From NCBI GenBank assembly GCA_963514005.1, contig OY740806.1, positions 24,056,001 through 24,120,000 of the forward strand: DNA of 64,000 nucleotides. The letters run 5' to 3'. The position numbers were made by a program, and so were the translations under genes. Below, piece by piece: positions 7,555-63,780 of this stretch; the first letter of the stretch is position 1, and each line of letters starts with the position of its first letter. Below the pieces are notes generated by a model. It was not told where the DNA came from. It made no database searches and saw only the letters and a list, made by a program, of their open reading frames with translations. Origin of the DNA: Raja brachyura. Lineage: Eukaryota.

Positions 7555-7720
7555 GTGTAGGAAAGAACTGCAGCTGCTGGTTTAAATCGAAGGTAGAGAC
7601 AAAATGCTGGTGTAACTCAGCGGGCCAGGCAGCATTTCTGGAGAGAAGGAATAGGTGACGTTTCGGGTCGAGACCCTTCATCAGTCTGAAGAATGGTCTT
7701 AACCTGAAACATCACCCATT
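7555..7720. mobile_element. Back-to-back pair of Penelope-derived termini with hammerhead-like cores
   Basis: Minus strand 7684-7657 reads CTGATGA-A-GGGTC-TC-GACCC-GAAAC-GTC. Plus strand 7686-7713 reads CTGAAGA-atggtcttaacct-GAAAC-ATC. Confidence 0.75.
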
Positions 7721-7736
7721 TTAAATTAGTGTCTTA

Positions 7737-8708
7737 TCTATATAATTAAAAGTTTCATCTTGACCACTTCCTGTCTGCACAGTATATTGATTTTAGAAAA
7801 GAGCTACCCTGTATCGCTGTGATTTTTGGCCATCTTACTCACAGTCCTCCTCTGCTGAGCCAGCCCCGAGGATTTTTCCCATCAATGAAAAATAAAAAAG
7901 CTACGAGTGTTTAAAAAATACCTTGAGATCAGCTGATTGGTCCTCTTGCCTGTCAATCACCGCGGTGAAGGTAATGGCCCTTCCGGGGAGGGGGGGGGGC
8001 AGGACTATGAAACCCCGGATGCCTGCATGTGAGTCAGTCACTCTGCAAGCACGCGAAAGAGAGGCCGCGACTGTCATTCTAAGCTGTGAATCAACTGAAC
8101 TGTGAGTCTGCAATGTACTTGCAATAAATTATTTGTTAGCCCTTAATGATAATGCCATGAGTTGTTTGGCCTGCTGCCCTGTCTGTGCTTGAAAGCGCAA
8201 TGCTTAATTGGAAAATAAATGAAATGACAATGCCATGAGTTGTTTGGCCTGCTACCCTGCCTGTGCTTGAAACTGCAACACGTTATTAGGTCCAACTGTG
8301 TTTGGAAGGAATAAATGCTTTATTAGGTCCGACTGTGTTTAGTCCAAATGTCCTGCTCATTTTGTGACAACTGCTTCATGGACAGGTCGCTCTGATGGCA
8401 TAATTTCTGGTGAGTGCAGAGGTCGTACTGATGCGTAATTTCTGGTAAGTGCAGAGGTCACGCTGATTGTGGAAGTGCCGCTGACGGCGGAAGCCCCATA
8501 GTGGAGAGGCCGCGCTTAGCCGTGTGAGTAGATTCAAGAAAGTTTACTGTCATATATACGGTGCGTGAGTCAGTGAGTGTATGTATGTGAGTGAGTCTGT
8601 GTGTGTGTGGGTGGGTGTATATTGGAATTGGTGGAGAGGTGGAATATTGTGTTGGGGGACCAGCCCTCCTGTGTGAAGCTGGGACCCAACGGGTCCCACT
8701 TAGTATAG
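7737..8708 (+). mobile_element. Non-autonomous Helitron
   Basis: 5' end A|TCTATATAATTAAAAG. Subterminal hairpin tgggaccc-aac-gggtccca at 8680-8698. 3' end atag|T (CTAG with one substitution). No TSD; internal tandem duplications. Confidence 0.7.
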
Positions 8709-11700
8709 TAGAGTCTAAATATTGTAGATACGTGGCATTCAAAATTAAAAACCCAAATTCCTGCAAGTCCTCAAGAAATCCAGTTAGGCGATGGAGAGGT
8801 AAATAGAGTTTACATTCAGCTTACTGCATTAACTGGCACCGAAAGTTGTTAGCTTTTAGGCGAATCAGTGGGAGAATCTGTGATAGGGCAAAAGATGCTG
8901 CAAGGCAGACGTGATGGTAATAGGATTGGTATAGAAACAAAAGATGGTGTTGGAAAGACTGCAGACAGTTGCAACAGAAGTGCAGGGGAGGAAGCAGTAT
9001 CTATAATGGAATAAAGGTGGGGAGATCCCAGGAGCATGGACCACATGTCTGTTTAGTAGCAATAGTGGATGTTTGTTACAAGCACCAATCCACATCACAT
9101 CCATTTGTTCAATATTTAAATGAAGCTGTATTGACAACAGGCCTGCCTTGGTTCTCTGCAGTCTGGTATCAAAGTGATTAAGAAAAAGGATATGATGTTA
9201 GAAGCCGTTTTAATAACAACTCTAAGGAAATATTTGAAAATAATATTAATCCAATGTTTTTATTCTTTAAATTGTAGAATGATTAGTAAATTCGTTTTTG
9301 ATAATATCTTCCAAGTAAAAGAAAATTTTGGAATTCAAAAATGTGCTATAAATATATTTACATCCTGAAAGAAGTAACTGCTTTTTAACACTACAGTGTC
9401 TCATTTGCAGAAAAGCTCCCTTCTTCTGGGAATGGTGCCAAACACAAGCAATCTTCCTGGATGAATGTAGAAAGCTGCTGAGACTTGCAGCTTGCCGACA
9501 CTAGAAGCACCATCGTCAGCAGTACTGTGCTTCTGATTAATAAGGCAATACACTGCGTATCGTCCATTAGCATCCATTACATCTTCCATAGCAATCTGAT
9601 TAGGAGTTAGGTCACCATTTTTGGTGAAATAATCATTTCATTTCTCATATTCCATGACAATATGGACAATCGATTTACAACTTCCACGGTGCAACTGAAC
9701 TGTAAAATATTGTCCTATGAAAAAGATTTATAGTGAAATATTCAAAAATAACATTTTTTTATGAATTCCATTGATTTTAGGAGGACACTAAATGTAAACT
9801 TTCATTTTATGCTTTCAAAACCAAAACATTTAAGTGTGAATCAAGTGACCCACCTCGGCATGGAGGATCCTCCCCACTTGCACGATGCAGTCAAGGAATC
9901 TCACAACGCGGAGCTTAACTTAAAATTACATAGAATAACAGAGGTTGAAGAAACCAATTTACATGGCATTGCTGGTTTTATTTGAAATGGTGGAGGATGG
10001 AAATGAGTATCTGTGTGATACTGTGCTGAATTTGTGTTGGTGAAGGACCGTATATTTAAATGCCCGGAGTTGCAAATGATTGGTAAAAATGAATTAAAAT
10101 GATATTAGTTTTATTTTCTCCCTTCATAATATGCATTTGGTAAAGTTTTGCAAGTGTTTCATGTGATTGAAACTGAGAGACAGATGAGTAATCATGAAAG
10201 AAAATAGATTCTCATCAGAAGGATCATCTGATGTCCAATACAACTTGGCATAAATGCAGGACAAATTAAAGACATTCCAAATTGAACACACTGGGTTGTA
10301 AACTTGACCATGGACCCTGCTCACTTTGCTCCCCCTGCCTACCCCCCACCCTCCACTATCCACTCCAAATCACTTCCTTCTGCTTCAACTGGAACATTGA
10401 AGGCTACAACAACACCTCAGATGCAGCAACCTTGTATGAAAACACCTCACTGGAATAGGAGATGAAATGCAGAAATATGTGTTATTCAGTTCAACTAAAC
10501 AGCATTCCATCTGCTAAATGACTGTTTCTCTAGTTTGCGGATTGTTAGTGCTCACTAATCCCATCCTTACTCAGCAATATATTAGCATAAAATGTGCATA
10601 GGCTGTTTAGTTGAATGTATCTGTCAGTGCTTCGGAGTATATGTGTACAGTTTCACTACAGGAGATAAACTGTGAACCAGCTTTGAGCTGGCAATTGTGT
10701 CATTTTGGTTCAGGCCATTACGCTATCACTCAGATTTCTGGTGATCGCAATCTAAGAATTGGAACAGTTTGCATAAATGCTCCACGATGCGGTCAAATAT
10801 CTGATTGACTTGAGGTTTGCACTTAGCTACAATTTCAGGGATTTATAGTACCTAGAGAGGATGCAGTTCCCAGAGGGGGCACAGCACAGAACATACTCAG
10901 CAATTAACAGCAGCAAGAGAGTCAAGGATCAGTCTCACTCAGAAACTCTAACTAATTAACCCTTGGAACCTTTCTGAGCCTGTGAACGAAGAACAGTGAT
11001 TGAATGGTGGACTTAATCCTTTGGTAGCAAAAGTCAGATCTCTTCAGGATTGCCAACCAAATTTACAGAAAATGATACAATCCTGCTGAGTTTGGGAATA
11101 TCAACCGACACAACTTACTTTGAGAAATGTGATTGTTGAGGAAAGATGAAAAAAATTGAGGATTTATCTAGCAGGTAGAAGATGAAATAAAAGAAAGAAA
11201 GATAAATAGATTAGTTAACACTTTTGGTGTACAACTTCACCATATCTGATGATTATACATTCCAAACATTCATTTTTCTGTCCAGAAGCTGGAAAAACAC
11301 AATCATGTATTTTCATGACTTTCGGCCTATGACACAATTTTCATGGATTATTAAACATGTAAAACAATCCAGAGCAGCTAGAAATCAGCCAAAATATAAA
11401 CTATGGCTATGACAAATCAAGACTGACTAGTCAAAATATACTAAGAAAATAATACCAATTGGCAACTGTGGAACATGTAAAGGAGCACATATAAAATATG
11501 GGAAGCATGTAAAATATGGGAAACATGTAAAAGCACATTTAAAATATGGGAAGAAAGATGTTGAAAAATTCTAGTTCATTGTAAATGGATGTGGCAGATG
11601 TGTGCTGATCCTCCATTGCAGGGTGAACAGAGTGCTAATCCTCCATTGAAAATGTGACAGCCAGAATTCTTCTGAGACTTACATCAGAAAGTTGTCTACC

Positions 11701-12281: not shown

Positions 12282-12534
12282 CATCTGGTTGGTTATGGGA
12301 TTGAGCATTTTGTTGGGGGAATAGGGTTGCAGTCTTCAAAGCATGGAGGTTAGCAATTACTTGGCAGATATCGAAGTCTGGCATTGTCAGAGGAAGAGCC
12401 AGTTTTATTTTGCTGGGCTCAAGAATGAGAGCAGTCAACTTTATTTCAGTACTCTTGTCTCTGACAGGGATGGGTGTGAAGTGGATGTTTCCAGTCGTGG
12501 GAAAGTCCAGGACGAGAGTAAGAAAGAACTAAGC

Positions 12535-12645
12535 TGGTTTACACCAAAGATAGACACAAAATGCTGGTGTAACTCAGTGGGTCAGGCAACATCTCTGGAG
12601 AAAAGGAATTGGTGACATTTCGGTTCAAGACCCTTCTTCAGACCC
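12535..12645 (-). mobile_element. Penelope-derived terminal repeat with hammerhead-like core
   Basis: Reverse complement reads agggt-CTGAAGA-agggtcttgaacc-GAAA-t-GTC-acca; ggt/acc could form a short stem I. Confidence 0.65.
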
Positions 12646-13103
12646 TACAACAGATTGGCTTTACTAATTACCTGCTGTAACCTCAGTATTAGCTTTTTGT
12701 GAATTCAATACTGACCTATCCAGATTCATCTGCATCTCAGTTGTTCAAATGAATAGCTGCGGACTATGGGTGACGGAGGGGTGAATCCAACCAGTTTACT
12801 TGCTCCTGATTATTTTTAAACGTTGCTGCTGCAAAATGCACATTTATGGATGTCATAAATGTTTGTCTTGTCCGTAATTGGCACCATTAACTGGCAAAGT
12901 TTACATAAAGAATAGCCACTTGCATGAGTTGGCAAAGTGTATGTGGGACAGGGAGACTAAATCCCAGAAGAAATGTGTCATTTTAAAAGTTGAGAGGACA
13001 AAATTGTAATGATCAATGGCGTATCAATAAAATGAAGGGTAATATAAATTGAGTGATTGCGATGAATGTTATAGGTTGATGTCATCACATGAAATTTTAT
13101 ATT

Positions 13104-17568: not shown

Positions 17569-17628
17569 GCACAGAAACGAATAGAGATCTTAGATTTAAT
17601 CAAGAAACAGAGGGAGGAAAGAATAAAG
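17569..17628 (+). CDS. HOATZ: HOATZ (C11orf88) internal coding exon, AQKRIEILDLIKKQREERIK
   Basis: ttgcag| acceptor and |gtaaga donor; 60 nt, phase 0-0. Matches recalled human [20 protein letters not shown]; syntenic upstream of LAYN. Confidence 0.85.
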
Positions 17629-20600
17629 GTAAGAGAAATGATAGATTGATGTAGGGTCTTTTGGAATACATGAAATAGTCAATAGTCAATATTCAAAATG
17701 CAGAAGCCAGGCTGGATGTTGTTGTGGACAGCTCTAAACAAATCCTCAGTCACAATATGTTTCGCAAAAATAACATAAAACTACAACAGTAAATGCTGCA
17801 CCCCACAGCACCCGGATTCAGGGTTGAATTCTGACCTGGAATGCTCACTGTGATATTGGCACATCCTCTCTGTGATCGCATGGGCTCCAGCATCCTCCCA
17901 CATCACAAAGATATGCTGGTAGGTTAATCACTACTGCAAGTTATCCCTTAACTGACAGCAAACAAAAAAATAATAAAATAGTTAGGTATGTGTGAGAGAG
18001 AATAGATTGCATGATTACAACAAGCATGAGAAGGAATGGGATTGCTTCATTGGTAGCTAACCTGACCTGATGGGCTGAATCACCTCTTATATTGTTATGA
18101 TTATAAGAAAAATATCAGTTTAATCAGCATTATTTTTATTGACGTCTTAAAAATATATTTTTGGCCAATGTTCAGCACCCAATTACACATGTTAGTTAAA
18201 ATCATACAAATGTTAAGTCCAATGTTCCCTGCTGCACGAGACCGACAATATCCCATATTCGCATAGCCGGATAAACAATGGTGCAATCTGTTGTCATTAT
18301 ATCACCATACTGTACAGGATCACTTAGAATTAGAAGCAGCTATGATTAGGGTATACCTCAGACTTATATACCACTCCCTGCACCATTTTATCACTACTCT
18401 GCCTAGACCAATTTTCATTCTATTTCAAAATAATGTATTGCTGGATTTAAAACTCTCCTCAATTCTTCTCTTGCTCTTTATTAAAAGCAAAATAATAGTT
18501 ATGATGGATAAATGTAGCATATGTCTCACAAGTAAAAAGGATAATTTAGCAACCATATCAAGCTACTTCAGTGAAATCATGAGATTGCAGTGGGTATTTC
18601 TGGTGCAGAGCATGTTTTATTATTTTGTGAAAACAATGTATGACAGCGTTCTAGAGTGGCCTTCAAACAAGATTCTGCTTGGATTTGTGACCATAATAAT
18701 AGGTTTACATAATATGGCATATGGTACAAGTGCCTTTTCTTTTTTTTTTAAATTAGATGACAATGCTGGAGTTGATCCTGCCCATACGAGGCCTGACAAT
18801 GTCTGGTATCATCAGTTTGGTGTCAATCAGCCTTGCACACTTTTGAGAATACATTAGTGGAAGATTTTTGATTTCACACAATTGTCATGCAATTCAATAA
18901 TCCTGATAGACAGGTATACAAGTGAGCTAGAGAGACTTGAAGGTTCCATATACAATTGATGTCCATTTTTAATTGTCTTGTTTTATCGAGTATGCCTATT
19001 ATTCTCCCACTAACCAGAATGATCATGCTTGATGGCTGATTAATAATTTAGTATTATTTGTAGAGGCTCAATCTATTATGTTGCCTGTGCAGTTGATTAT
19101 TCTGACAACGTACATGAGTGATAGCCATTTAAGAGCTGTTCGATGATCGGAACATGAGCTCTATCATTTGTGGCATCTGCAAGAAAGCAAACTAAGGAAA
19201 TAAAGATCTAAATACTAATTTCTTGATATACCAGTTGGAGAGAAAGATGAAATAGAAGAGAAATAATCTTCAACATAAAAGCAATTGCATTGAAGTATGA
19301 GTTGGCTCTCAGGCATTGTCAGCACTTTATTGAACATCAAGATTTAGTGCAGTGATTCAGAATCACGGTTTTAAAAAAACCTGAGCGAAACAGTTACAGT
19401 ATTGAAAAATCAATGAATGTAATTTTCTTGAAGAAATCTTTGATTGTCATTCTTTAAAAAAAATGTAATTTTTCATTCAGCATTTACTTCATGTGTACTT
19501 TTTGCTGCTTACAGCAAAAATGAAGGCAATGTTGAAAATTAATACTATAATGTACAGGAGTATTTTAACTGCTCTTCCAATTGCGCTCATTGGCTAGGTA
19601 AAGCCCTTCTGACTGAAAATATGAGGACAAACAGCCACCACAGCTCTGTGAATACACTGTTTACAGCCACAAAGCTTGTGAATGTATGTTCATATGTTAT
19701 GTAGACCCTATAACTAAATAAGCATTATGTGATACACATAATAATGCAGCCTCAAAAGCTGTAGTAATATTGGGGTGCATAATTTATAATTTGCTCTGGT
19801 GCAAAAATATTTCATACATTTGAATTACAAGAAGCTGTGGAAATGCATAATGTACCATTTTGTTGTAAATAAAACATGATTATTTATACACACTTCTTAA
19901 ATCTGTATTAATATTTTGGGGAGAGTTTGTCCTGGCTGTGAGTAATTTTTGGGGGATTTTTACTTTGTTGGTTTTCCAGAATTCCCCTTTAGTCTCCTCA
20001 ATTTCATTCAAAATTAGTTCCAAAATAACCAAACTCGTACAATCCCATCACATTTTCTTACTTCCATTAGCTTCCTGTACCACTCTGGTCCTATTTGAAA
20101 ACCCTCATTTCAAATTTCTCATTTGAGTTCTCGCTTCCATGCAGAATGGAGCCTTTTCTCTTCCTCCACTCTTTGCTCTATCAGCTATTATACTGTATAC
20201 ATCAGCTATCTTCACATGAGCCAAATTAGCCCTTGCATCCATCTGAGTCTCCCATTCTGCCAGTTGTCCAGTACCTATTGGTCACTTTCCCTTTATCACC
20301 TTCCAACTTCTTGGAAGTTTCTCCTTGGAAACACCTTTGTAAATTTCTTTATTTAAAAAAACCCTTCAAAATAGTAAGAGCGGGCCATTTGATCTTCCAA
20401 CCCTGCTCTACTATTAATTACCCCGGCTGACCTACCTCAATTTCCTCTTTAGGCTTTATTATTCCTTACTAATTACTACTGCTGCTATTCAGTATCTGTA
20501 AAAAGGAAAATGTGGTCAATTTCAATCAGGAGTTATTTATAATCTGTGCCCTGAATTTTGTGTATGGGACGTGTCATTCCATTTCTACACCCAATGAGTC

Positions 20601-20790
20601 CATTGTCATATTGTCCCCATACCCTCGGGCTCAGGAGCACATTACCATACATTTTTATGTCTATCCAGTTAAAGACTACCTCAAAAGCATCATGTGGTCA
20701 ACTTACCACCTTTGTCTTTAATTCTGACAATTAATATTGCATTAATAATTGTGTCACAAAATGGCTTCAAATGGTGTTAAAATGTGCATA

Positions 20791-21420: not shown

Positions 21421-21469
21421 TATATGTCATTCTAGGAATGTTTACAAAAATGGTAAAAGAGGCTTACAA

Positions 21470-32400: not shown

Positions 32401-32455
32401 CTTGTAGGTTCAAAACTCTATTGCTCTCTGTCTTCAAGATGGAGTATCTGAAGTT

Positions 32456-50680: not shown

Positions 50681-52184
50681 CAGCTGGGGGAAACCGATGC
50701 AGGCACAGGGGAAGAGTGAAAACTCCACACACACAGCACCCAAGGTCAGGATTGAACCCAGGTCAATGGAGCTGTGAAAGAACAGTTTCATTAGTTGCAC
50801 TGCTGTAAAATTCAGGAAAATATCTTAAAGATCTAGGATCCTTTCTGACCAATTTCACTCTTTGATGCATCTGATGAAACAGAAAGGAGGCCTGTTATAG
50901 CAAAGTTGTATTAAATGTGATGATCATAAAGAGAATGGATTAGTTGGCATGCGCAGGTTGGGCCCTGCATCCGTGCTATATGATTCAATGACTCTATTCG
51001 AAACAGAGATTAAACCTCTTTCTTCCTGCCCATCTTCTCAACTTGGAGAGGTGATGGATACACATGGAAGTATGTTCAACTAATTGATTTTGTTTAGTGA
51101 AATATTATTCTTCAGTTTAGAGCCAGCATTCGAACCCTATCTTCGCATTCGGAAGTTACTGGGTGGAGAAATAGGAAACGTCTGCTTTAATTCCTTTTCA
51201 TTTTTCAAAATAATGCACTTATTGTTAAGTTTCCGAGAAATATGTAGAAATATACTAGGCCCAGGAGCTCAGTTACTGCACATCCCCCACTACCAAAATG
51301 AATTCAGTGCCTTCCCAATCCCATGTAACTCCTGGCGAGTGCCTTCCCAATCCCATGTAACTCCTACGAGTCACTGTTTCAGGTCGAAGATTCTTTGTTT
51401 TGTGTGGGATGACCTGCAGAGTATTTTCAACATTATCTGTTTTCATTTTAGATTTCCAGCATCTGCAGATTTTGTTTTGGATTTTCAAATTTCTGAAGAC
51501 ACCAGCCTGGAATCATCTGAACTACTCGCCAGGAGTTACATGGGATTGGGAAGGCACTGAATTCATTTTGGTAGTGGGGGATGTGCAGTAACTGAGCTCC
51601 TGGGCCTAGTATATTTCTACATATTTCTCGGAAACTTAACAATAAGTGCATTATTTTGAAAAATGAAAAGGAATTAAAGCAGACGTTTCCTATTTCTCCA
51701 CCCAGTAACTTCCGAATGCGAAGATAGGGTTCGAATGCTGGCTCTAAACTGAAGAATAATATTTCACTAAACAAAATCAATTAGTTGAACATACTTCCAT
51801 GTGTATCCATCACCTCTCCAAGTTGAGAAGATGGGCAGGAAGAAAGAGGTTTAATCTCTGTTTCGAATAGAGTCATTGAATCATATAGCACGGATGCAGG
51901 GCCCAACCTGCGCATGCCAACTAATCCATTCTCTTTATGATCATCACATTTAATACAACTTTGCTATAACAGGCCTCCTTTCTGTTTCATCAGATGCATC
52001 AAAGAGTGAAATTGGTCAGAAAGGATCCTAGATCTTTAAGATATTTTCCTGAATTTTACAGCAGTGCAACTAATGAAACTGTTCTTTCACAGCTCCATTG
52101 ACCTGGGTTCAATCCTGACCTTGGGTGCTGTGTGTGTGGAGTTTTCACTCTTCCCCTGTGCCTGCATCGGTTTCCCCCAGCTGT
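50680..52184. repeat. 661-bp inverted repeat (arms 50680-51340 and 51524-52184, 183-bp spacer)
   Basis: The arms read as exact reverse complements wherever checked. The ORF track gives the same peptide from 51084(+) and 51780(-), and all symmetric coordinates sum to 102864. Confidence 0.97.
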
Positions 52185-52563
52185 GGCTGTTTTCTCCCAC
52201 CTCAAAGAAAAGCGTGTGTGTTTGATTAATTGGCCTTTATAAAATGCCCAGACATGCGGGTGAGGGGATGAATCTGGGGGGGAATCTATGGGAAAGTGGG
52301 ATCAATATTGGGTTAGTGTAAATAGGTGCTTGATATCATTGTGGACTAGGTGGGCAGAGGAGTCTATTTCTGTGCTTATACCTGTCGGTTTAAGTAGGGA
52401 TACAATTGATAATTTGTTTACGTTCAGAGAAGGTTGGTCAACACATTTTGGTTAATCGTCTTTCCGTCAGGTGCTTGGGAAATTGCAAATATGATGAAAT
52501 TGCTCTATAAATGCAAGCTGTTATTTGGCCAACTTTAACTGACTCTGTTTTTTCTCTGCGCAG

Positions 52564-52861
52564 GCCAGAGAGTGTGTCGCAGGGGAATTGAGCGACCATG
52601 TTACAAAATTGCCTACTATAAAGATGCGTCACGCAGGTTGGGGTTCAAGGAGGCGGAACATGCATGTCAAAGCGATGGCGGGGTCCTGCTCAGCATTGAG
52701 TCAGAAAATGAGCAGCAGCTCGTTGAGAAGCTGATCCAAGGCTTGTCTGCTGGTGACGGAGATTTCTGGATTGGACTCTCGCGGAGAGAGAATGGCAGCG
52801 AGAGCTCAGCAGGTTGTCCAAGCCTGTACCAGTGGCTGGATGGGAGCGATGCAAAGTTTAG
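52564..52861 (+). CDS. LAYN: Layilin exon 2 (C-type lectin domain, N-terminal half)
   Basis: gcgcag| acceptor and |gtgggc donor; 298 nt; GQRVCRRGIERPCYKIAYYKDASRRLGFKEAEHACQSDGGVLLSIESENEQ...GDFWIGL...DGSDAKFR. Confidence 0.96.
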
Positions 52862-52936
52862 GTGGGCATCCTTCTACTGTTCATGGCAGCAAATATTGGA
52901 GTTATTATCAACCTTGACACTGCTATGTTCCACCAT

Positions 52937-53243
52937 GTTTAGTTTAATTTTGTTTGGAGATGCAACATACACACATACCCTTCGGCACACCGAGTCCACT
53001 TCGGACACCGTTTACCCGTTCCCACTAATTCCATTTTATCCCGATTTCTCACTCCCAACACATTAGGGGCAATTTACAGAGGCCAATTAACCTACAAATG
53101 TGCACGTCTTTGGGATATGGGAGGAAACTGGAGCACCCGGAGGAAACCTACAGGGTAAACGTGCAAACTCTGCACAGACAGCAGCTGAGGTCAGGATCAA
53201 ACACAGGTCTCTGGCGCTACCAGCTGCACCACTGTGCCGCCCA
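52937..53243 (-). mobile_element. HE1-type SINE in LAYN intron 2
   Basis: Reverse copy ending in gcaccactgtgccgccc. Confidence 0.78.
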
Positions 53244-53699
53244 TTTGCCAGCATATTATGTTCTTTATTCGTTCTTGGGAGCAAGTGTCTCTGGCAGTGC
53301 CAGCATTTATTGTACAATCTCAGTTACCCTGAGAAGTTGGTGGTGGGTCTTAAACTGAGTGGTTCTTGGCTGAACATTGCAATTATAGCTGGCCCTCACA
53401 TTTGGTTCTCTTCAGTCTCTGGGTTTTGCTCATTCACTAGCTCACTGAGTCCGTCTTGTGATGGTGGACAAGTATAGGTCTGAGCATTTAATTATTGTAC
53501 CTAAGAACAAAGAAACAAGTCATCATAACACAACAGAAAGTAAGCCCAGCTCCCACTGTCATTAGACCCAGGAACTGTTTGACTGGGAATTAGAATCAGA
53601 GAGGGGAAGATAGAAACCGTGTGCTCTCAATCTAAGATGACATTCCCATTGTTGCCCATTGTCAAATTGCCATTAGTTGACAACTGTTGTTTCTTTTAG

Positions 53700-53857
53700 G
53701 AACTGGTATGTGGACGAGCCATCATGTGGCAGTGAAGTGTGTGTTGTGATGTATCACCAACCCTCTGCATCTTCCGGCATGGGAGGCCCGTACTTGTATC
53801 AATGGAATGATGATCGATGCAACATGAAAAACAACTTCATCTGCAAGTATGCACCAG
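53700..53857 (+). CDS. LAYN: Layilin exon 3 (C-type lectin domain, C-terminal half)
   Basis: cttttag| acceptor and |gtaatc donor; 158 nt; RNWYVDEPSCGSEVCVVMYHQPSASSGMGGPYLYQWNDDRCNMKNNFICKYAP, nearly identical to recalled human layilin. Confidence 0.97.
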
Positions 53858-54837
53858 GTAATCCTGCATGCTTGGGGAAACGTTCAGCCAAGAGATCCGA
53901 ATTCAGAGCTGCCTGTAGGTCCCAGGCTGTACGAGCAGCTAGCATGTCCATGTGTAGTTGCTGGCAAGAAGTTCTCTCTCCTGTGACCAGATTTGGTACA
54001 CAGCGCTGGCCCAGCTCTGGAGGGAGATCAGGCCTGTGGTGGAAGAAGCTTAAGGCAGTTCTAGGGAGGGCGTTTTGTCTTTGGTGGTGGTTGGCACAAG
54101 AGTTGGGCTGGGACAAGTGGAACCACCCCTCTTTAATTTCTGGCATGGAGATGGGGAGATGAAACGGCAGTGGTGGGGGAGGTTGGATCAGAGCTGGGAG
54201 TGTGACAGGACTGCCAGTTCCTCTCCAGATCACACACCATCCTGACTGATATATACTCCCAATCCTTCATCAAGGACTAAGGAGGGGGTTGACCTCTCTC
54301 AGCATTGCTGTGCCTGGGAGCATCTCACAGAGTCAGCTGTAGAAGGGGCTAATCCAAGGTTCACAGAGGTTTGGGGTGGTCTTGAGAGTGGGTGGCTGGA
54401 AATTACGGGCTGAGCTCTGGGGGTGGAGAGCCTTGGCTGGGAAAGGGATTTTCACCTGCTGATCTCTGATGCCAACTATATGTACATTTTTCAATTCTGA
54501 GTTGTGAGTATCACTGGCAAGGCTGGTATTTATTTCTCATCCCTAATTGCCCTTGAGTGAATGATATTGGGCCAAACTTTAGATCCACTGTAGTCCTTCC
54601 GGTAAACATACTCCCACAGCTGACTTGGGAGGCCCAGGATTTAGACCGGTGATGATGAAGGTTTAGTAATATAGTTCAGAATCAGGATGGTGTGTAATTT
54701 GGAAAGGAGCCTGCAGGTGGTGGTGTTGCTATGTGCCTGCTGCTCCTGTCCTCGGTCGATGAGTGTGCAGGTTAGTGAGGCACTGTTGGAAAAGCCACAG
54801 CCCATAACTGCGGTTTCCGTGTGTTTTTTGCTCCTAG

Positions 54838-54924
54838 TTCGAGTTTCTACAATTCCGAGTCCAACCCTGACTCCTTCCCTGAATCGGACCCTAATTCCCT
54901 CTGGAGATAATAGATCTGATGCAG
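54838..54924 (+). CDS. LAYN: Layilin exon 4 (S/T/P-rich stalk, VRVSTIPSPTLTPSLNRTLIPSGDNRSDA)
   Basis: ttttttgctcctag| acceptor and CAG|gtaatt donor; 87 nt, phase 1-1, open and in frame. Low sequence similarity to mammals. Confidence 0.7.
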
Positions 54925-54927
54925 GTA

Positions 54928-55283
54928 ATTATTATTATTATTATAAATTATAAATACTTTATTGATCCCCTCAGGGAAATTCAGATGTCCAGAAGCCCAT
55001 AACCAACAAACCCACACATTCAAAACGAACGCAGCCAGAAAATACATAAAATACAATGTGGGCACTACCTGAGAGCAATAAATACTTAAAAAGACCAATA
55101 ATTAACAATAAAAAAATTAAAACATGCAAAAATGCATCCCCCTACAGCTTAGCGGCTCATATTATAAAATCTAATGGCTGCAGGGGTGAAGGATCCCCTG
55201 AACCGCTCCGTTCTACAGGGCGGGGAGAGGAGCCAGTTGTTGTTCTGAGTGCTCTTTTGACACTCCAGAATTACATGGAGGGG
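54928..55283 (-). mobile_element. Rex1/Babar-like LINE 3' end
   Basis: (tta)n tail followed by atactttattgatcccc...gggaaatt, the reverse complement of a Rex1/Babar-type 3' terminus. Confidence 0.6.
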
Positions 55284-55474
55284 AGTCAATGTATTCACTG
55301 GCTGAGCGAAAGGGTTGGCGGGTGTGATTGGTTGAGGAACAAGGGAATGGCATGGGGGTGAAAGGTTGTCAGTGGAGGAGGTGGGTGAGCTGACACGTCC
55401 CTAATGGTGAAAGGTTTCGTCTATGAATATGTTGAGTGCAGGTATTGGGTCACGGTTAATTATTGTCAGACTAA

Positions 55475-55692
55475 ATACTGGGGTGACTCAGTGGGACAGG
55501 CAGCATCTCTGGAGAAAAGGAATAGGTGACATTTCGGGTCACAAACCTTCTTCAATGGTTCTGAGTCTGGAGAAGGGTTCCGACCCAAAACTTCACCTAT
55601 TCCTTTTCTCCAGAGGTGGTGCCTTAACCACTGAGTTACTCCAGCATTTTGTGTCCATCTTCAGTATAAACCAGCACCTGCAGTTCCTTCCT
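55475..55692. mobile_element. Fold-back pair of Penelope-derived termini
   Basis: ctctggagaaaaggaataggtga ... tcacctattccttttctccagag inverted arms. Confidence 0.7.
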
Positions 55693-56814
55693 AGAAATTT
55701 ATTATTGTCATGCATACCAGGATACAGTGAAACTCTTGTTTTGCAAGGTGTCCAGCAGGTTATACTATGCATGAGTACAGTCATGCTATTTGTGAGTACA
55801 CATAGACGGAGATTTGAAAGAATGGAACAAATGTTGTGGATATATGTAAATCCTTTGAGGCCAGCATGCAAAGAGTCGCCATGCCCCAATGCTATCTTAA
55901 ACAAGGGCCATAGATAGTTAGGTAAATCTTGTTTATCATGATTTTGTCATATAGATTCTGATCATGTAGACTTTGAATGAGTGAAGTATTTCCCGTTTGG
56001 AATATTAAGTGGTGATGTGAACGCAGCACATCTATGGGTGACATTACAAACTGATTTAACTCCTCCATCTCCTTTGCACCTTCACAAATCCACAGATGTG
56101 ACATGAAAGTTGCTCCCATTGTAAGTGGATTGCTTCTCCGTAGAGTGGTAAAATGATGAAAACCCAATCCCGTCACATTGTGGAACAGGATAGCACACGA
56201 ATGGAAATACTTAGTAGGATATGCTAAAGCTTCAGATCACAATGTCCAGGAGCAGACTTGCATGGAGATGCTGCCTGTCCTGCTGAGTTACTCCAGCATT
56301 TTGTGTCTACCTTGCATGGGCAGTTGGAGGCAAACGGTTTGATGTTGTGTCTTAATTTTCTTGCCGGGGAAGATCTGTCCAATTTCTGACCAGTAGCCTG
56401 CATTGTTTCCATTGGGTACTGAGATCTCTCAGGATTAGATGACCCAGAACTGAAACGTTACAGGCATCAGTAACCTTCATAGATTACCCCAGATTTTCTG
56501 TCAATTATGTCCCAGATTTTGTCCCAATTAGTGATTAAGAAGTTTAACTGATTTTGAGCATAATCTAAATTTACAAGATTATGCGAAGCATTGGCAAAGT
56601 TGTGGTAACTGGTTATCTGGGTGCAGAGTTGCTACACCAAGGCATACAAGTTGCCAGCAAATCCTGAAACTGAAATGGTGGAAACACTCACCAGACCAAA
56701 CAGCGTCCGTGGAAAGGGAAACAAGAGTTAACATTTCAGGTTGAAACTCCTTCTTCACAACTGAAAAGTGAGAAAATACAAAGAGCGATGTAAAGGTTGT
56801 GAAATACAAATCAC

Positions 56815-57060
56815 ACCTGTCCATGCCGACCAACGATCACCCGTACACAGTTCTATCTTACACACTGGGGACAATTTTCAGAAGCCAATTAACCTACAAC
56901 CCCGCATATCTGTAGAGTGTGTGAGGAAACCAGAGCACCCTGAGAAAACCCACGTGGTCACAGGGAGAACCTACAAACTCCATACAGACAGTACCCATAG
57001 TCAGATCGAACCCGGGTCTCAGGCGCTGAAAGGTAGCATCTCTACCGTTGCACCACTGTC
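56815..57060 (-). mobile_element. HE1-type SINE
   Basis: Reverse copy of the family. Confidence 0.72.
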
Positions 57061-57764
57061 TCATCATCTGAACAGAAACAAATGAATTGAGGGACTGGGA
57101 GAGTGGAATGGAGTCCTTACAGAAAGCATAGTGGGTGATAGTATAGTTGAGACAGCTGTGTGTGTCTATTTGCTTGCAATGGAAATTCACTGTTAACATT
57201 TCTCCTGAAATGGATAAAGAGGGAAACAAAGAATCAGGGATGAATTCAACCAGCTGTAATATTAACCTTTTTTTCCTATTTTCATGGACACTCTATGAGC
57301 TGCTGGGCATGGCCAACATTGTCCTTTTAATTTCAGTTCTCTACAAAAGCTCTGACCAACAGTACACCCTGTTTACTCGCTCTCTTGCCCTCATTAATTT
57401 ACCAATACCTCCTCCACCCTCTCTGCAACGTTTACCTACCTGGACTGTTCTTGTGGGTTTTGTTTCACATTTTCAGTTCTGATGCAGCATCTGTCTCTCG
57501 TTCCATATCCATAGATGCTGCCTGACCTGCTGAGTATTTCCAGCATTTCCAGCTTTATTTTGGATTTTCAGCATCTGGAGTCTTTTGATCTTAGTGCAAT
57601 TTAGCAATCAACAAAGCAATAAGAGGGAGAAATCTTTCCAAACCTTTACATATGAAGTAATGGGAGAGAAAAGTCTGAGCAACAGCGCGAGAATGGTAAT
57701 TTATTCACTGCGGGAATGGCAATTTAAAGAAGGGTTCTGAGCTGAAACGTCACCTATTCCTTTA

Positions 57765-57890
57765 GTAACGGCCAGGTTCAGGAATAGCTACTTCCCTGCA
57801 GCCATCAGGCTATTAAACACTACAACCTCATATAAGCTCTGAGCTACAATAGACTATTATTATGAATGCACTATTATTGTTTGTTTTTTG

Positions 57891-57930
<40 letters not shown>

Positions 57931-58085
57931 GTGTGTGTGTACTTGTGAGTATGTGTATATATACACTCTGAACTTTCTCTCGAATCATACTATGTTTACA
58001 TGTTCTGTTGTGCTGCAGGAAGTAAGAATCTCATTGTTCTATCTGGGACATATGACAATAAAACACTCTTGACTCTTGACTTGAC
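57765..58085 (+). mobile_element. Rex1/Babar 3' end with embedded (TG)n(TA)n microsatellite
   Basis: aggttcaggaatagctacttccctgcagccatcaggctattaaac; tcttgac-type tail; dinucleotide runs at 57892-57940. Confidence 0.6.
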
Positions 58086-58404
58086 CCTTCTAAACCAACA
58101 TCTGCAGTTCCTTCCTACACATGGTAGTTATTAATCCCACAAACCTCTAAGTTTCACAGTAAATCACGAGCATCGACTAACCTTTTTCCAACCCCTCTGT
58201 ATGTGTCAGTCAACTACACACCAGAGTACATGTTGCATTTAGCAAGCAGTAATATCTAGCTGATGCACAAAGGTGGCTAGGACTGTGGCAGGGAGTACAG
58301 CAGCCTTAAGAAGCAACCAACTTCCTCATCTTTAAATACTGAGCCCTAACTGAGCAAGGATAATGGCAGAACCTACATTTATTTGCATTTAACATTGTTT
58401 CTAG

Positions 58405-58470
58405 ATGAATCGGGAGTTCCAGTTACTGAGGGCGAGAAGGATTCACCTGTAACTATTGGCAAATCAGAAG
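58405..58470 (+). CDS. LAYN: Layilin exon 5 (stalk, DESGVPVTEGEKDSPVTIGKSE)
   Basis: gtttctag| acceptor and AAG|gtaatt donor; 66 nt, phase 1-1, in frame. Confidence 0.72.
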
Positions 58471-58949
58471 GTAATTATGGAAATACTGAGCAGCATGGGA
58501 TGTAAATCATCCTCCACTGCATGCTCTAAATATGTGATACGATGGCATAACCTACTGTACTGATTTTTGGAATTTAAGTGCAGTGCGCACACAGTATCTT
58601 ACTGGGCTACAGGCTTCTGCCTCCTGTGTCTATTTCTGACCAATACCAAGTTTTGCTGCACCAATCCCGTGAAGCCCTTATCAATGGAAGGTGTCACCAA
58701 CCTGTGGTGGAAGTAACTCGTGGTCCATGGACATTTGTCATCTGTCCAGCTGTTCGTTTTTAAACACTTTTTCAATTAATAAGCCATTTCATCAATGCTA
58801 CTCTCCCTGCTATCGGAAGGTATTGACACTAAAATTGGGTTCAAACCCTAAAATTGGGCGACAAAGACCAAAGGCACGGATTCCTGTCGCGGCACAGGTC
58901 CCCTCCTCAGCTAAAAATGCCGATTTTCATTGGACTTGAGTCTTCATCT

Positions 58950-59515
58950 CTGTTGGACTCACAGATGTAAACCCTGTCCCACTCACCTCCATCTGAGGAC
59001 CCCAGCAGTCCGTCCAGGGGAGGCAGAGGTACACGTGCACCTCTTCTATCCTGAAATATTGCATCCAGTGTTCCCAATGTGGCTTACTGTACATTGGCAA
59101 GACCAAGAGTAGACTGTACTCAGTCTGCCAAGACCTACTGGATCTCCTGGTTGCTAACCATTTTAACTTCTCTTCCCATTCCCATACTGACTTTTGTGTC
59201 CTGGAACTCCTCCACTGCCAGAGTGAGGCCAGTCACAAACTGGAGAATCACCTTGGGTAGCTTACAACCCAATGGTATGAACATAGATTTCTCCAATTAT
59301 CCTCTTATCTCTGGCCTATGTTCCAACCACCCACCTATACAAAATCCTCCTTGCCTTTGTCAACCTATTATCTGCCACGCTTTGAACTGCCTCTCCCCTT
59401 TTCCAACCCCCCCCCCCCCAACAAACAGTCTGAAGAAGGGTCTTAGCCGAAACATCACCTATCCATGTTCTCCAGAGATGCTGCCAGATCAGCTGAGTTA
59501 CTCCAGCCTTGTGTC
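58950..59515 (+). mobile_element. Penelope-like element remnant (GIY-YIG endonuclease plus terminal repeat with hammerhead core)
   Basis: Frameshifted translation TCTSSILKYCIQCSQCGLLYIGKTKSRL...VANHFN...LGSLQPNGMNIDFSN, then CTGAAGA-agggtcttagcc-GAAAC-ATC at 59430-59456. Confidence 0.85.
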
Positions 59516-59964
59516 CTTCCCTGCATATCAAGTTGCCTATTCAAATACCAGTACCATTTCTGCATCCACCCTCGCCCCAGCATCATGTTCCAGGCACAGC
59601 ACTCTCTGTGTAAAATGCCCCTTTCATCTTTTTTTCAAAAGAAACTCGGTTCACTTCTTGCTGGAAGGAACCAGCCCACCTTGAACTGTGGTTCTTTGAC
59701 TATCTGATGCCCTCCTATAACTCGTACATGCCCGGTCACGGTCAAAGGATTTCACAACTGATTTGAATTATGTTGCAGCCTGAAGCCCAAATCCGGAGAT
59801 TGATTATGGAATGTTGCAGGAATCCTGAATGGTTTTTTTTTTTTTGCTCCTTAATCTGACATTCCTGAAGATAGTTCAAGAGACCTTTTCAAAACCCCGA
59901 CAACTAGCTGAGTTCAGTTAGCTCAGCATGAACCCCAAACCATCTTTCTAAAGCAATATTGAAT

Positions 59965-60535
59965 GTTTCCTTTATTGGCTGAGGCAAGGTTGATAAGGGC
60001 GGAGAACAAATGCTGGATCGATAAACAGTAACAGTTAAACCACGGCCTGTGTACTGTGTAGAGTTGTGGTCGCCACATAAGAATAAAGAGGTGGTTGACC
60101 TGGAGGGGCTGCAGAGAAGGTTTAAGGGGACATTGCCAAGTCTGGACAATTGCAGCTGTCAGGAAAGACTGGGTGAGCTGGGGATGGGGGTGGGTGGGGT
60201 TCCTTGGGTTTGGATTGTGAAGCCTGAGGGGCAGATGTAAAATTATTTCAAGTAAATGGGAAGGACCTGTTTTCCTGAGCAAGGGTGATTCGTGGGATAA
60301 TTGAAAGAAGGATTTTGTGGAAGTTTTATTGTACAAAAGGAGGTGGGGGTCCAGAACTCACTGCCTGGAAAAGCGGTCGAGATAGTGAACTTCACTATTA
60401 AAAAGTACACCGATTATACTGGAAGACCTGTGACCAGCAGGGCTGTGGGTCAATTACTAGAGGGTGGCGTTAGTTTGGGATAGTTATTTCAGACATGATG
60501 GGCCAAGTGACTCCCCATGTGTACAAACATTTCTA
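59965..60535 (+). mobile_element. Decayed CR1 LINE fragment
   Basis: Translation YCVELWSPHKNKEVVDLEGLQRRFKGTLPSL. Confidence 0.7.
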
Positions 60536-60646
60536 AAGTTCACTTTCATTTGGAATATGTCAAACAAGATGCACATGCTCTATCCTGCTCACTAGGTTTC
60601 AAAATGTCAAATTTATCTTTGTAATTGGACCATTTATTTTCTGCAG

Positions 60647-60749
60647 GCAATTCTCTCAACATCATCTACATTATCATTCCAACGATCCCCCTGCTCCTCC
60701 TGTTGCTGGTCTCCAGTGCAGTCTTTTGTTTCCGTTTCTTTGTGAGAAG
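60647..60749 (+). CDS. LAYN: Layilin exon 6 (transmembrane, GNSLNIIYIIIPTIPLLLLLLVSSAVFCFRFFVRR)
   Basis: ttttctgcag| acceptor and AG|gtaagt donor; 103 nt. Matches human LNLAYILIPSIPLLLLLV. Confidence 0.95.
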
Positions 60750-60789
60750 GTAAGTTGGAAATGACAGGTGGCCCAGACATTGGCAGATC

Positions 60790-61285
60790 ACCATTCCACG
60801 GTGAAAACCCACCTAACGTCAGGGTGACGGACCCCTGATGTCATGGTGACACACCACCCAATGTCACAGTGACAGACCACCCAACCCGACGGTGATGGAT
60901 CCATCTAATGTCATGGTGACAGACCTCCCCCCCCACTAACCCCGTGGTGAAAGACCACCCAACCACATGGCGACAGAGCTCCCAACACCATGTGATGGAC
61001 CACCCAACGTCATGGTGATAATCCACCCGACCTTACGATGACAGAGCCCCCCCAACCCCGTGATGACAGAGCCCCCCAACCCCATGGTGGCGGAGCCCCC
61101 AACCCCACGTTGATGGATCACCCAACATCACATTGACAACCCACCCCACCCCACAGCATCAGACCACCCAACCGCACAGTGACAGCCCACCCAATGTCAC
61201 AGCAACAGACCACCCAATGTCTCGGTGACGATCCACCCAAGTCTACAGATGATGGACCCTCCAACCTAACCATGAGGGACAATCC
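60790..61285. repeat. Degenerate minisatellite (~23-bp unit, ggtgacagaccacccaacgtca-like)
   Basis: About 20 imperfect copies filling most of LAYN intron 6. Confidence 0.8.
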
Positions 61286-61450
61286 AACGTCAACATCGGT
61301 GTGAATTCACATTGCTTCATGCACTCACCACCCCAGCTTCTCCCTCCCTTCCTTTCCCACTGGGAGGGGCAACTCAGTGTGAGAGAGGGAAATGTGATCC
61401 AAATTTGTCTCAGTCTGGCCGGCAATTCAAGTCAATGATTTTATTTTAAG

Positions 61451-61781
61451 GAGGAAGGAAAGGAGTGAAAATGTTGTGAAAGAGCACAGCTTCTGGATGG
61501 AGCCGGTCAGAACCCAGTCGCCAAACCTGGAGATTTACAACATCATCAGAAAGCAGTCAGAGGCAGACCTGACTGGAACTCATCCTCACATTAACACCAC
61601 GTCCTTCCGCACCACTGCAGCTAATCGAGGCTTGCACAGTCTCTCTGGAGAGTATGATAACGTCGACAGCCACTGCTCTGAGAGCGGCTTTGTGACTAAT
61701 GATATTTATGAGTCTTGCAGTGACCAAGCATCAAGAAGCAGAGAATCGGGTTGGGTCGAAAACGGGATCTATGGCTACTAG
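61451..61781 (+). CDS. LAYN: Layilin exon 7 (cytoplasmic tail to stop)
   Basis: ttttaag| acceptor; SPNLEIYNIIRKQSEADL...SESGFVTNDIYE...RESGWVENGIYGY*. The seven exons sum to 1119 nt (372 aa plus stop). Confidence 0.97.
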
Positions 61782-63224: not shown

Positions 63225-63230
63225 AATAAA
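63225..63230 (+). terminator. Candidate LAYN polyadenylation signal
   Basis: First AATAAA I noticed after the stop (~1.45 kb 3' UTR); ATTAAA also occurs near 63135. Confidence 0.3.
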
Positions 63231-63577
63231 AGGATAAGGGCAAGACAGTGTGAAGAAAAAGCACCAGAAGAAAAAGTAAAGCAATTTTTTTTTTGAAAAA
63301 TTTAAGAAATATCTCCAATGATAATTAGAACCTGAAAGAATGGGACTCCATACAGATGTTTCAATGCCAAGTGAACGAGATATCAAATTTTGCGCAATGA
63401 ATATTAGACTGGGGTAGACAAATCCTAACTTCCTATGGCAAGTTTAATTTGTATCTATATAATCACACAGTGCTGTAAATATGAAGTGTGTAGTCTGAGA
63501 TATTATTTTTGAGCAATTTATGCTGAAATAATGCACCTCTTTAACACACACTTTTCACAATCACAATAATACTTTGG

Positions 63578-63780
63578 CAGATAAAAATGCTGGAGAAACT
63601 CAGTGGGTGAGGCAGCATCTATGGAGCAAAGGAAATAGGCAACGTTTTGGGCCAAAACCCTTCTTCAGCCCGAAATGTTGCCTATTTCCTTCGCTCCATA
63701 AATGCTGCCTCACCCGCTGAGTTTCTCCAGCATTTTTGTCTACCTTTGATTTTCCAGCGCCTGCAGTTCCTTCTTAAACA
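63578..63780. mobile_element. Fold-back pair of Penelope-derived termini
   Basis: aaaaatgctggagaaactcag...ggaaataggcaac / gttgcctatttcc...ctgagtttctccagcattttt inverted arms around acccttcttcag. Confidence 0.78.

What the first reader, a model, noticed from the sequence alone, without database searches (positions are those of the whole stretch)
7555..63780. Dispersed family of short fold-back elements built from two inverted hammerhead-bearing Penelope termini
Seen: the same ~100-130-nt unit recurs at least a dozen times (4680, 7555, 12535, 24745, 29190, 32065, 33480, 34105, 41430, 42995, 55475, 57725, 59425, 63578). At 7555, 29190, 32065, 55475 and 63578 it occurs as inverted pairs joined at the ribozyme end, giving a MITE-like hairpin with no coding sequence. 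Inference: these may be a non-autonomous, retrozyme-like retroelement mobilised by Penelope RT, or the repeated product of inverted pseudo-LTR formation during Penelope integration. Several copies lie in HOATZ and LAYN introns, where they could add hairpins or cleavage sites to pre-mRNA.
Basis: partly seen in the sequence, partly recalled or inferred. Interest (0 to 1): 0.7.

Follow-up and report, generated by a model that had tools for sequence, protein, structure and literature searches.

The report
Truncated fold-back Penelope retrotransposon insertions
These short DNA hairpins are real, but they look like ordinary dead stubs left one at a time by a known kind of jumping gene (Penelope-like elements), each with its own junction, rather than one new mobile hairpin element.

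Summary
The repeat is real: 28 arms in the window, none in a reversed control, and 7 head-to-head pairs against 0.39 expected. It is a Penelope-like element (PLE) terminus: one copy sits downstream of a decayed GIY-YIG endonuclease whose relatives are RT+endonuclease ORFs. The six close pairs have six different junctions and come from at least three subfamilies. Four of the six are bounded as a whole by 9–16-nt target-site duplications. In those four, one arm ends at about +125 (with a ~35-nt tail) and the other is shorter. This matches the published PLE pattern of an inverted 5'-truncated copy plus tail. Public contigs show 265 joints; the 10 shown that cross the hairpin centre all differ. 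Only 1 of 14 scorable hammerhead cores is intact, and it lies antisense to the host genes. No head-to-tail hammerhead pair occurs, so a retrozyme is not supported; a MITE is not supported either. One thing stays unexplained: 17 of 22 arms start at the hammerhead's 5' edge, which may mark a short leader RNA. This scan has reported the same pattern in two other genomes (unchecked AI notes).

The parts
7543..7732 (.). Fold-back insertion: tailed arm 7559-7684 (-, the only intact minimal hammerhead core) joined to a ~30-nt arm 7686-7716 (+); 16-nt TSD at 7543-7558 and 7717-7732
29188..29378 (.). Fold-back of an older subfamily: tailed arm (-) and tail-less arm (+), both clipped inside the CUGANGA box; no TSD found
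32050..32405 (.). Fold-back: arm 32060-32160 (-, ends +101) and tailed arm 32261-32397 (+), with the 5' head of a tRNA-type SINE between them; 9-nt TSD at 32050-32058 and 32397-32405
33461..33620 (.). Old, decayed fold-back (arm identity 63% over 46 columns); no TSD found
55459..55710 (.). Fold-back in a LAYN-like intron: tail-less arm (-, ends +86) and tailed arm (+, ends +133), ~11-nt spacer; 10-nt TSD at 55459-55468 and 55701-55710
63562..63792 (.). Best-preserved fold-back, 1.8 kb past the LAYN-like stop: tail-less arm (-, ends +91) and tailed arm (+, starts +17, ends +125); 14-nt TSD at 63562-63575 and 63779-63792
4667..4788 (+). Solo tail-less arm (-5 to +90), 13-nt TSD
12519..12653 (-). 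Solo tailed arm; its 5' flank (12643-12653) resembles an inverted piece of the element's own upstream sequence; no TSD found
24739..24834 (-). Solo tail-less arm in a HOATZ-like intron, abutting a SINE; no significant TSD
32732..32821 (+). Solo tail-less arm with an internal deletion, 9-nt TSD
34050..34199 (+). Arm with retained upstream pyrimidine tract and CAG (longer 3'-UTR/pLTR piece)
41424..41705 (.). Tailed arm (-) at 41424-41557 and an older fragment (+) at 41660-41705, head-to-head 103 nt apart; no TSD, may be two separate insertions
41947..42871 (-). Probable old longer copy: endonuclease C-terminal remnant 42871-42728, interrupted by other repeats, ending in arm 42022-41947
42986..43093 (+). 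Solo tail-less arm (about +3 to +90), 10-nt TSD
56257..56319 (+). Solo fragment (about +45 to +91), 9-nt TSD
56673..57583 (.). Possible long, old fold-back: arm 56759-56673 (-), SINE, RT-thumb remnant 57259-57089 (-), then UTR and tailed arm 57508-57583 (+); no bounding TSD found
57721..57763 (+). Short arm (hammerhead part only)
58982..59525 (+). Longer 5'-truncated Penelope-like copy: decayed GIY-YIG endonuclease 58982-59300 (stop and frameshift), 3' UTR with pyrimidine tract and CAG, then arm 59430-59525
17569..26883 (+). Host context: HOATZ-like exons (one Pfam PF17664 hit at 17542-17646; exons 22099-22151 and 26814-26883 by recalled resemblance)
40584..61781 (+).

Best explanation
The hairpins are very short, dead insertions of endonuclease-positive Penelope-like elements (probably Neptune clade), each made in one integration event. 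Shown here: the unit is a PLE terminus, whole pairs are bounded by one TSD, 3' ends fall in two classes about 35 nt apart, junctions differ, and cores have decayed. Inferred: the GIY-YIG endonuclease makes staggered nicks 9-16 nt apart. Each nicked 3' end primes reverse transcription on Penelope RNA, one at about +125 (tail included) and one usually near +90. Both cDNAs stop early, most often at the hammerhead's 5' edge, and their ends are joined by short homologies or filler, giving a head-to-head unit. Priming from one nick gives a solo arm. The fold-back is a product of integration and is not itself amplified. The hairpin buries the hammerhead, and the copies then decay.
For: GIY-YIG remnant directly upstream of the 59425 arm (Pfam E 0.004, below the curated cut-off; phmmer 158 hits at E<=0.001, best 3e-14; Pfam calls GIY-YIG in 7 of 8 of these hits tested and RT in 4 of 8; tblastn back to the window down to 5e-23). 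TSD-like repeats of >=9 nt in 10 of 23 loci tested against 41 of 2968 random windows and 6 of 500 cross-locus pairings; 4 of 6 close pairs are bounded (16, 9, 10, 14 nt). Of 12 TSD-defined 3' ends, 6 lie at +86 to +93, 4 at +125 to +133 (all four in pairs, one per pair), and 2 elsewhere (+79, +101). Six of six junctions differ. The two arms of a pair share subfamily letters, and these differ between pairs. In public contigs, 10 of the 15 joints shown (265 in all) cross the hairpin centre, all at different places, at depth 0-20 in X6 against 8.8 for the flank. Literature: inverted pLTR, overlapping and shorter, 31-bp tail on one arm, 8-10-bp TSD (PMC3846280); inverted 5'-truncated copy and 30-40-bp tail as a general PLE trait (PMC8557442); both strands cleaved and extended, two RT start sites that define the tail (PMC11167929).
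Against: 17 of 22 arms that include the hammerhead start within a few bases of C3 (judged by eye from upstream sequence). Random 5' truncation does not predict this. One joint of unlisted kind (63661/63629) has depth 326 in X6, 335 in X8 and 109 in X4, about 37 times the X6 flank, so some junctions may be shared by many loci (table 5c). 250 of 265 joints were not shown. Two of six pairs have no TSD. No empty site was seen: X6 and X8 run to 63603 and X1 to 63596. Twin priming is my inference; a search for Penelope with 'twin priming' listed 3 papers, none on PLEs by title (listing only).
Confidence: 0.85

Rival explanations
1. A short non-autonomous RNA (about 95-135 nt, starting at the hammerhead's 5' edge; either the 5' leader of the Penelope mRNA or a separate SINE-like transcript) is the usual template. 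Solo arms and fold-backs are its single- and double-primed insertions. This is compatible with variable junctions and differs from the best explanation only in why the cDNAs are short.
For: 17 of 22 arms start near C3. Loose ends at the C3 position lose agreement within about 10 letters in the DNA runs (agreement 0.37-0.38). Summed contig depth over the hairpin is 1.8-3.5 million against 8.8 on the flank (not a copy number). In vitro the anole PLE primes 111-118 nt into its ORF on an RNA spanning the pLTR-ORF junction (PMC11167929). Four long copies have a pyrimidine tract and CAG just before C3, as where the D. virilis intron ends at helix I (PMC4209133).
Against: At least 4 arms continue upstream into UTR, one of them into the endonuclease. 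The plurality loose end continues into intron-side sequence rather than a spliced exon. RT stalling at the hammerhead or the C-rich tract would give the same clustering. No RNA ends could be observed, since all runs laid were contigs.
Confidence: 0.2
2. The hairpin is one mobile unit: a retrozyme-like RNA cut out by its hammerheads, perhaps circularised, and re-inserted by Penelope RT.
For: TSDs bound whole hairpins. One joint at about 37 times flank depth is shared by three runs, but its kind is not given. Animal retrozymes are reported to derive from pLTRs (bioRxiv 10.64898/2026.07.22.740005).
Against: Six of six junctions differ and come from at least three subfamilies. The hammerheads lie on opposite strands, so one transcript carries only one; tandem arms number 0 of 28. 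1 of 14 scorable cores is intact. Freeing that core costs 18.7 kcal/mol in the hairpin against 4.0 for the arm alone. Ends do not sit at the cleavage site.
Confidence: 0.04
3. The hairpins are MITEs moved by a DNA transposase.
For: Short, non-coding, hairpin-forming and TSD-bounded.
Against: TSD lengths vary (9, 10, 14, 16 nt), termini are asymmetric (tail on one side only), lengths vary from 158 to 338 nt, solo arms have their own TSDs, and the sequence is a retroelement terminus.
Confidence: 0.02
4. Fold-backs arise after or apart from integration: a second copy inserts into an existing one (Penelope targets its own pLTR), or a solo arm is duplicated by snap-back repair.
For: The anole PLE cleaves its own ORF-pLTR junction in vitro (PMC11167929). 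A within-pair partner is the best match for only 4 of 12 arms. The 7555 arms differ at 7 of 35 columns, with the short arm more decayed. A short palindrome spans C3.
Against: One TSD bounds both arms in 4 of 6 pairs. Arms match by subfamily, with variants found in no other window arm shared inside the 29190 and 32065 pairs. Snap-back copying would give a zero-mismatch loop junction, whereas junctions carry spacers or deletions.
Confidence: 0.08

Closest known systems
Complex insertions of EN+ Penelope-like elements: pLTR, adjacent inverted 5'-truncated pLTR, optional 30-40-bp tail (Arkhipova 2013 PMC3846280; Craig 2021 PMC8557442)
   Same: Inverted copy joined at the 5' side, tail on one arm only, TSD around the whole unit, hammerhead in the pLTR, link to a GIY-YIG ORF end.
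   Different: Here the body is reduced to nothing, so only the two pLTR ends remain; density is high (28 arms in 64 kb); 5' ends pile up at the hammerhead.
Poseidon PAc of Anolis, internal RT initiation (Frangieh 2024 PMC11167929)
   Same: Minimal hammerhead followed by two 3' end classes about 35 nt apart; the outer end here (+125 from C3) is close to PAc's start (111-118 nt past stem II, about +119 to +126 by my conversion).
   Different: PAc is Poseidon clade; relatives of the fragment here carry the Cys-rich linker of Neptune. The text I read does not explain inverted copies.
Minimal type I hammerheads of metazoan PLEs (Cervera and de la Pena 2014 PMC4209133)
   Same: CUGANGA box, extra base before stem II, GAAA, palindromic helix III remnant; that paper already notes dual motifs 100-700 bp apart on opposite strands and many single motifs from truncated PLEs.
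   Different: Stem II is 4 bp here and the opposite-strand pairs are directly joined; no cartilaginous fish is named in the two of four parts I read.
Non-LTR retrozymes (Cervera and de la Pena 2020 PMC7229834; Li 2026 bioRxiv 10.64898/2026.07.22.740005)
   Same: Non-coding, pLTR-derived, type I hammerhead, TSDs longer than 4 bp.
   Different: Retrozymes are head-to-tail repeats with a hammerhead in each unit and give circular RNA; these are head-to-head or solo, with mostly broken cores.

Membership tests
EN+ Penelope-like element insertion | Terminus attached to a C-terminal GIY-YIG endonuclease of an RT-EN ORF | tested here: met
   58982-59300 directly upstream of the 59425 arm. Shown for one copy, probable for a second (42871-42728).
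EN+ Penelope-like element insertion | Minimal type I hammerhead in the pLTR | tested here: met
   Core boxes recognisable across arms; fully intact in 1 of 14 scorable arms. Rfam gave no hammerhead hit at E<=1.
EN+ Penelope-like element insertion | Inverted 5'-truncated copy adjacent at the 5' end | tested here: met
   7 head-to-head pairs, 0 tail-to-tail; junctions.
EN+ Penelope-like element insertion | Optional 30-40-nt tail on one end | tested here: met
   3' ends at +86 to +93 (6 of 12) and +125 to +133 (4 of 12).
EN+ Penelope-like element insertion | Variable-length TSD around the whole insertion | tested here: met
   4 of 6 pairs; 10 of 23 loci with >=9 nt against 1.4% in the null.
EN+ Penelope-like element insertion | Full-length master with PLE-type RT in the same genome | not testable with these tools
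   No genome held; only an RT-thumb remnant at 57259-57089.
Neptune clade | [quoted passage not shown] | tested here: inconclusive
   Cys-rich linker visible in 4 of 5 homologues printed; the window fragment starts just after it; no tree built.
Non-LTR retrozyme | Head-to-tail tandem with a complete hammerhead in consecutive units | tested here: not met
   0 tandem arms among 28; TRF found no array of the unit. Some tandem-type joints exist elsewhere in the genomes.
Non-LTR retrozyme | Unit delimited by hammerhead cleavage sites | tested here: not met
   5' ends cluster near C3, about 28 nt upstream of the cleavage site.
Non-LTR retrozyme | Monomeric linear and circular RNA | not testable with these tools
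   No run on record as RNA; only contigs were laid.
MITE | Symmetric terminal inverted repeats, fixed-length TSD, uniform size | tested here: not met
   Asymmetric ends, TSD 9-16 nt, variable length.

The most novel reading that the evidence does not exclude
The sharp 5' stop at the hammerhead marks the true 5' end of a short Penelope leader RNA (set by the transcription start or by the splice acceptor just before C3). The RT dimer primes on this leader from both nicks at its two start sites, so this lineage mass-produced a SINE-like, leader-only Penelope derivative, and a few fold-back junctions were then re-amplified as units. The very large number of copies would be a natural record from which the unexplained origin of inverted pLTRs and tails could be read.
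Probability: 0.15. Interest if true: 0.55.

Novelty: new member of a known kind. Interest (0 to 1): 0.2.

Why it matters
As a class of element it adds little: the inverted-copy-plus-tail structure is in print for PLEs. Its use is as data. How PLEs form inverted pLTRs is still called unresolved (PMC8557442), and a genome this dense in minimal, TSD-bounded copies allows a direct test of twin priming (tail on one arm, two 3' end classes, junction homologies). For annotation, these hairpins mimic MITEs and miRNA precursors (Rfam hits all far below gathering scores) and should be labelled as Penelope. The 63578 hairpin may lie in the LAYN-like 3' UTR and could be a dsRNA or editing substrate; that is only a hint.

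Tried and rejected
Whole-genome census: no genome is held for this window. Rfam at E<=1: 10 matches, 9 miRNA-precursor models and NRON, 8 of them on two hairpins, all miRNA scores far below gathering, no hammerhead family. The search for homologous proteins with the 87-aa endonuclease piece, longer proteins: 14 candidates, none at E<=0.001; the HMMER-wide search then found relatives. Sequencing runs: no RNA holder listed; this is no evidence on expression. The 61300-61390 bin has no cover in X1 and X4, recorded here only. Pfam on 144 charged + strand ORFs of >=38 aa (of 261) found no HOATZ hit; a shorter ORF then hit; HOATZ exons for profile positions 1-111 were not located. Idea that short arms are retrocopies of spliced RNA: weakened, because the plurality loose end runs into intron-side sequence and the upstream G-run of 12535 may be a micro-inversion (2 mismatches in 11 to the 34105 upstream sequence, post hoc). 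No TSD around 56673-57583, 29190, 33480, 12535, 24745, 34105, 41430, 41947, 57725 or 59425. The 9-nt matches at 51410 and 57508 were left out of the 3'-end count as doubtful, and the 7555 short arm (+30) was not in that table. Paper searches that found no description of short Penelope fold-backs in cartilaginous fish: (listings only, apart from papers read); Repbase, Dfam and most subscription journals were not searchable, so this is not evidence of novelty.
Full report
OBSERVATION. The unit is present at all 14 listed positions. A profile from 11 window arms gave 33 hits at E<=1, 28 at E<0.01, and none on the reversed window. Seven arm pairs lie head-to-head within 120 nt, against a null mean of 0.39 and a maximum of 4 in 5000 placements; none is tail-to-tail or tandem. 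Six are close pairs: 7555, 29190, 32065, 33480, 55475 and 63578. Four fold strongly (z -11 to -24 on the + strand) and two weakly. Positions below are counted from hammerhead base C3. That the host is a cartilaginous fish is my recollection from the repeat types; no call named the organism.

IT IS A PENELOPE TERMINUS. The 59425 arm is preceded by about 130 nt of UTR and a decayed GIY-YIG endonuclease at 58982-59300. Pfam gives GIY-YIG at E 0.004, below the curated cut-off. A search of 1.84 billion proteins gave 158 hits at E<=0.001. Of 8 hits scanned, 7 carry GIY-YIG and 4 also RT; four are 816-883 aa long. They map back to the window at E down to 5e-23 and reveal two more remnants, 42871-42728 (endonuclease end) and 57259-57089 (RT thumb). 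Four of five homologues printed have a Cys-rich linker before the endonuclease, the mark of Neptune-like PLEs (PMC3846280); I built no tree. The arm begins with a minimal type I hammerhead of the kind described for PLE pLTRs (PMC4209133), although Rfam does not detect it.

EACH FOLD-BACK IS ONE INSERTION WITH ITS OWN JUNCTION. Direct repeats of 9 nt or more flank 10 of 23 loci tested, against 41 of 2968 random windows and 6 of 500 cross-locus pairings. Four of the six pairs are bounded as a whole (16, 9, 10 and 14 nt); the two oldest are not. Of 12 TSD-defined 3' ends, six fall at +86 to +93, four at +125 to +133, and two elsewhere. All four long ends are in pairs, one per pair, while the TSD-bounded solo copies in that table are tail-less. 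The six junctions all differ: a single base (7555), clipping of both boxes (29190), a SINE head (32065), a deletion (33480), an ~11-nt spacer (55475), and an overlap into stem II (63578). The arms of a pair share subfamily letters that differ between pairs, so at least three subfamilies made fold-backs. Arm-to-arm identity is 63-88%, and the partner is the best match for only 4 of 12 arms, so nothing suggests that pairing is being maintained.

BEYOND THE WINDOW. No genome is held. I laid contigs of 4 of the 11 listed runs on 61300-64000 at 80% likeness. About 59,600 contigs of X6 were laid; summed depth over the hairpin is 1.8-3.5 million against 8.8 on the flank (not a copy number, but a very large family). 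Of 265 joints, 15 were shown. Ten cross the hairpin centre, all at different places (left arm stopping at +0 to +52, right arm starting at +32 to +97), at X6 depth 0-20 and X8 depth up to 62. The other five read as tandem or tail-to-tail arrangements. Against my reading: one joint of unlisted kind (63661/63629) has depth 326, 335 and 109 in X6, X8 and X4; 250 joints were not shown; and joints at low likeness can be alignment artefacts. No empty site was seen: flank contigs run into the left arm in X6, X8 (to 63603) and X1 (to 63596), so organisms A, C and D share the insertion.

THE RIBOZYME IS MOSTLY DEAD AND BURIED. Fourteen of 28 arms could be scored over all core columns; one is intact (7556-7690, minus strand). 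Opening that core costs 18.7 kcal/mol inside the hairpin against 4.0 for the arm alone; for 63578 the figure is 11.2, but that core is mutated anyway. The two hammerheads of a pair lie on opposite strands, so a transcript carries only one, and minimal hammerheads are thought to need a dimer or protein (PMC4209133; PMC11167929). Both host genes are on the + strand, and no + arm has an intact core.

HOST CONTEXT. A HOATZ-like exon is confirmed by Pfam at 17542-17646; exons at 22099-22151 and 26814-26883 rest on recalled resemblance. Only 55475 of the five named hairpins is demonstrably intronic. X1 and X4 contigs begin at the last-exon acceptor (61450 and 61448, the latter with 42 unlaid letters), and a second X1 contig reaches 63596. 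That is a weak hint that the 63578 hairpin is in the 3' UTR of a relative; the tool marks X1 as probably DNA, and contigs show no single transcript.

MECHANISM. Shown: PLE origin, TSDs, two 3' end classes, one tail per pair, variable junctions, decay. From the literature: the anole PLE protein cleaves and extends both strands, is predicted to dimerise, and starts RT at two internal sites that define the tail (PMC11167929). Inferred: two nicks prime two cDNAs at the two sites, both stop early, and their ends are joined, giving a head-to-head unit inside one TSD. Whether one or two RNA molecules are used is open.

WHAT IS LEFT UNEXPLAINED. Of 22 arms that include the hammerhead, 17 start within a few bases of C3, 4 continue into a pyrimidine tract ending in CAG, and 1 starts at +17 (by eye). 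The stop is not at the cleavage site. It may mark the 5' end of a leader RNA, a splice acceptor as in D. virilis, or an RT pause. The plurality loose end favours unspliced sequence for a few more bases.

COMPARISON AND VERDICT. The structure is the published PLE insertion pattern (PMC3846280; PMC8557442) with the body reduced to nothing. Opposite-strand hammerhead pairs were already noted in 2014. Retrozyme tests (tandem units, cleavage-defined ends) and MITE tests (symmetric ends, fixed TSD) were not met. Two earlier notes of this scan report the same pattern in other genomes; I had recorded my reading before seeing them, and they are not independent support. Verdict: real, a new member of a known kind, interest 0.2.

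PAPERS, WHAT I SAW. PMC4209133: parts 1-2 of 4. PMC11167929: parts 1-2 of 4. PMC3846280: parts 1-3 of 5. bioRxiv 10.64898/2026.07.22.740005: parts 1-2 of 5 plus passages; its supplements are closed and may list chondrichthyan families that bear on novelty. PMC8557442, PMC8969392, PMC2377424, PMC7229834: passages only. No supplements were read. All others: search listings only. Repbase and Dfam could not be searched and may already hold these families.

Noticed in passing
window 50680-52184: A 661-nt, 100% identical inverted repeat with a 183-nt spacer inside the first LAYN-like intron; the spacer holds an old Penelope arm (51410-51473). Either a very recent inverted duplication or an assembly artefact.
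   Followed up: no
window 32157-32240: Only the 5' head (about 84 nt) of a tRNA-type SINE sits between the arms of the 32065 pair, joined to the left arm in the same orientation. Could be a template-switch chimera or a SINE insertion later deleted.
   Followed up: partly
window 34090-34109, 42022-42050, 56759-56790, 57455-57482, 59400-59429: Long copies have a pyrimidine tract and CAG just before the hammerhead, and the endonuclease remnant at 42728 ends in a donor-like sequence, suggesting an intron spanning the UTR.
   Followed up: partly
window 12643-12653: The 5' flank of the 12535 arm resembles an inverted 11-nt piece of the element's own upstream sequence, as classical twin priming would leave (post hoc, 2 mismatches).
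   Followed up: partly
window 61451-63596: Contigs of run X1 start at the last-exon acceptor and reach into the 63578 hairpin, a weak hint of a long 3' UTR that contains the hairpin.
   Followed up: partly
window 16885-17208, 24459-24731, 26089-26409, 33662-33932, 35154-35352, 38701-38998, 42301-42580, 49023-49295, 50387-50680, 52939-53216, 56819-57064: A second dispersed family of about 280 nt with a tRNA-like head, a SINE; family name not determined.
   Followed up: no
window 15562-15695, 36298-36476, 37951-38085, 42190-42307, 44376-44534: A third, younger repeat of about 130 nt, 78-97% identical between copies; not identified.
   Followed up: no
window 60797-61248: Minisatellite with a 23-nt period in the last LAYN-like intron.
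   Followed up: no
window 13953-14256: Assembly gap of 304 N.
   Followed up: no
window 63790-63960: Another multi-copy repeat begins right after the 63578 TSD (raised contig depth in all four runs).
   Followed up: no
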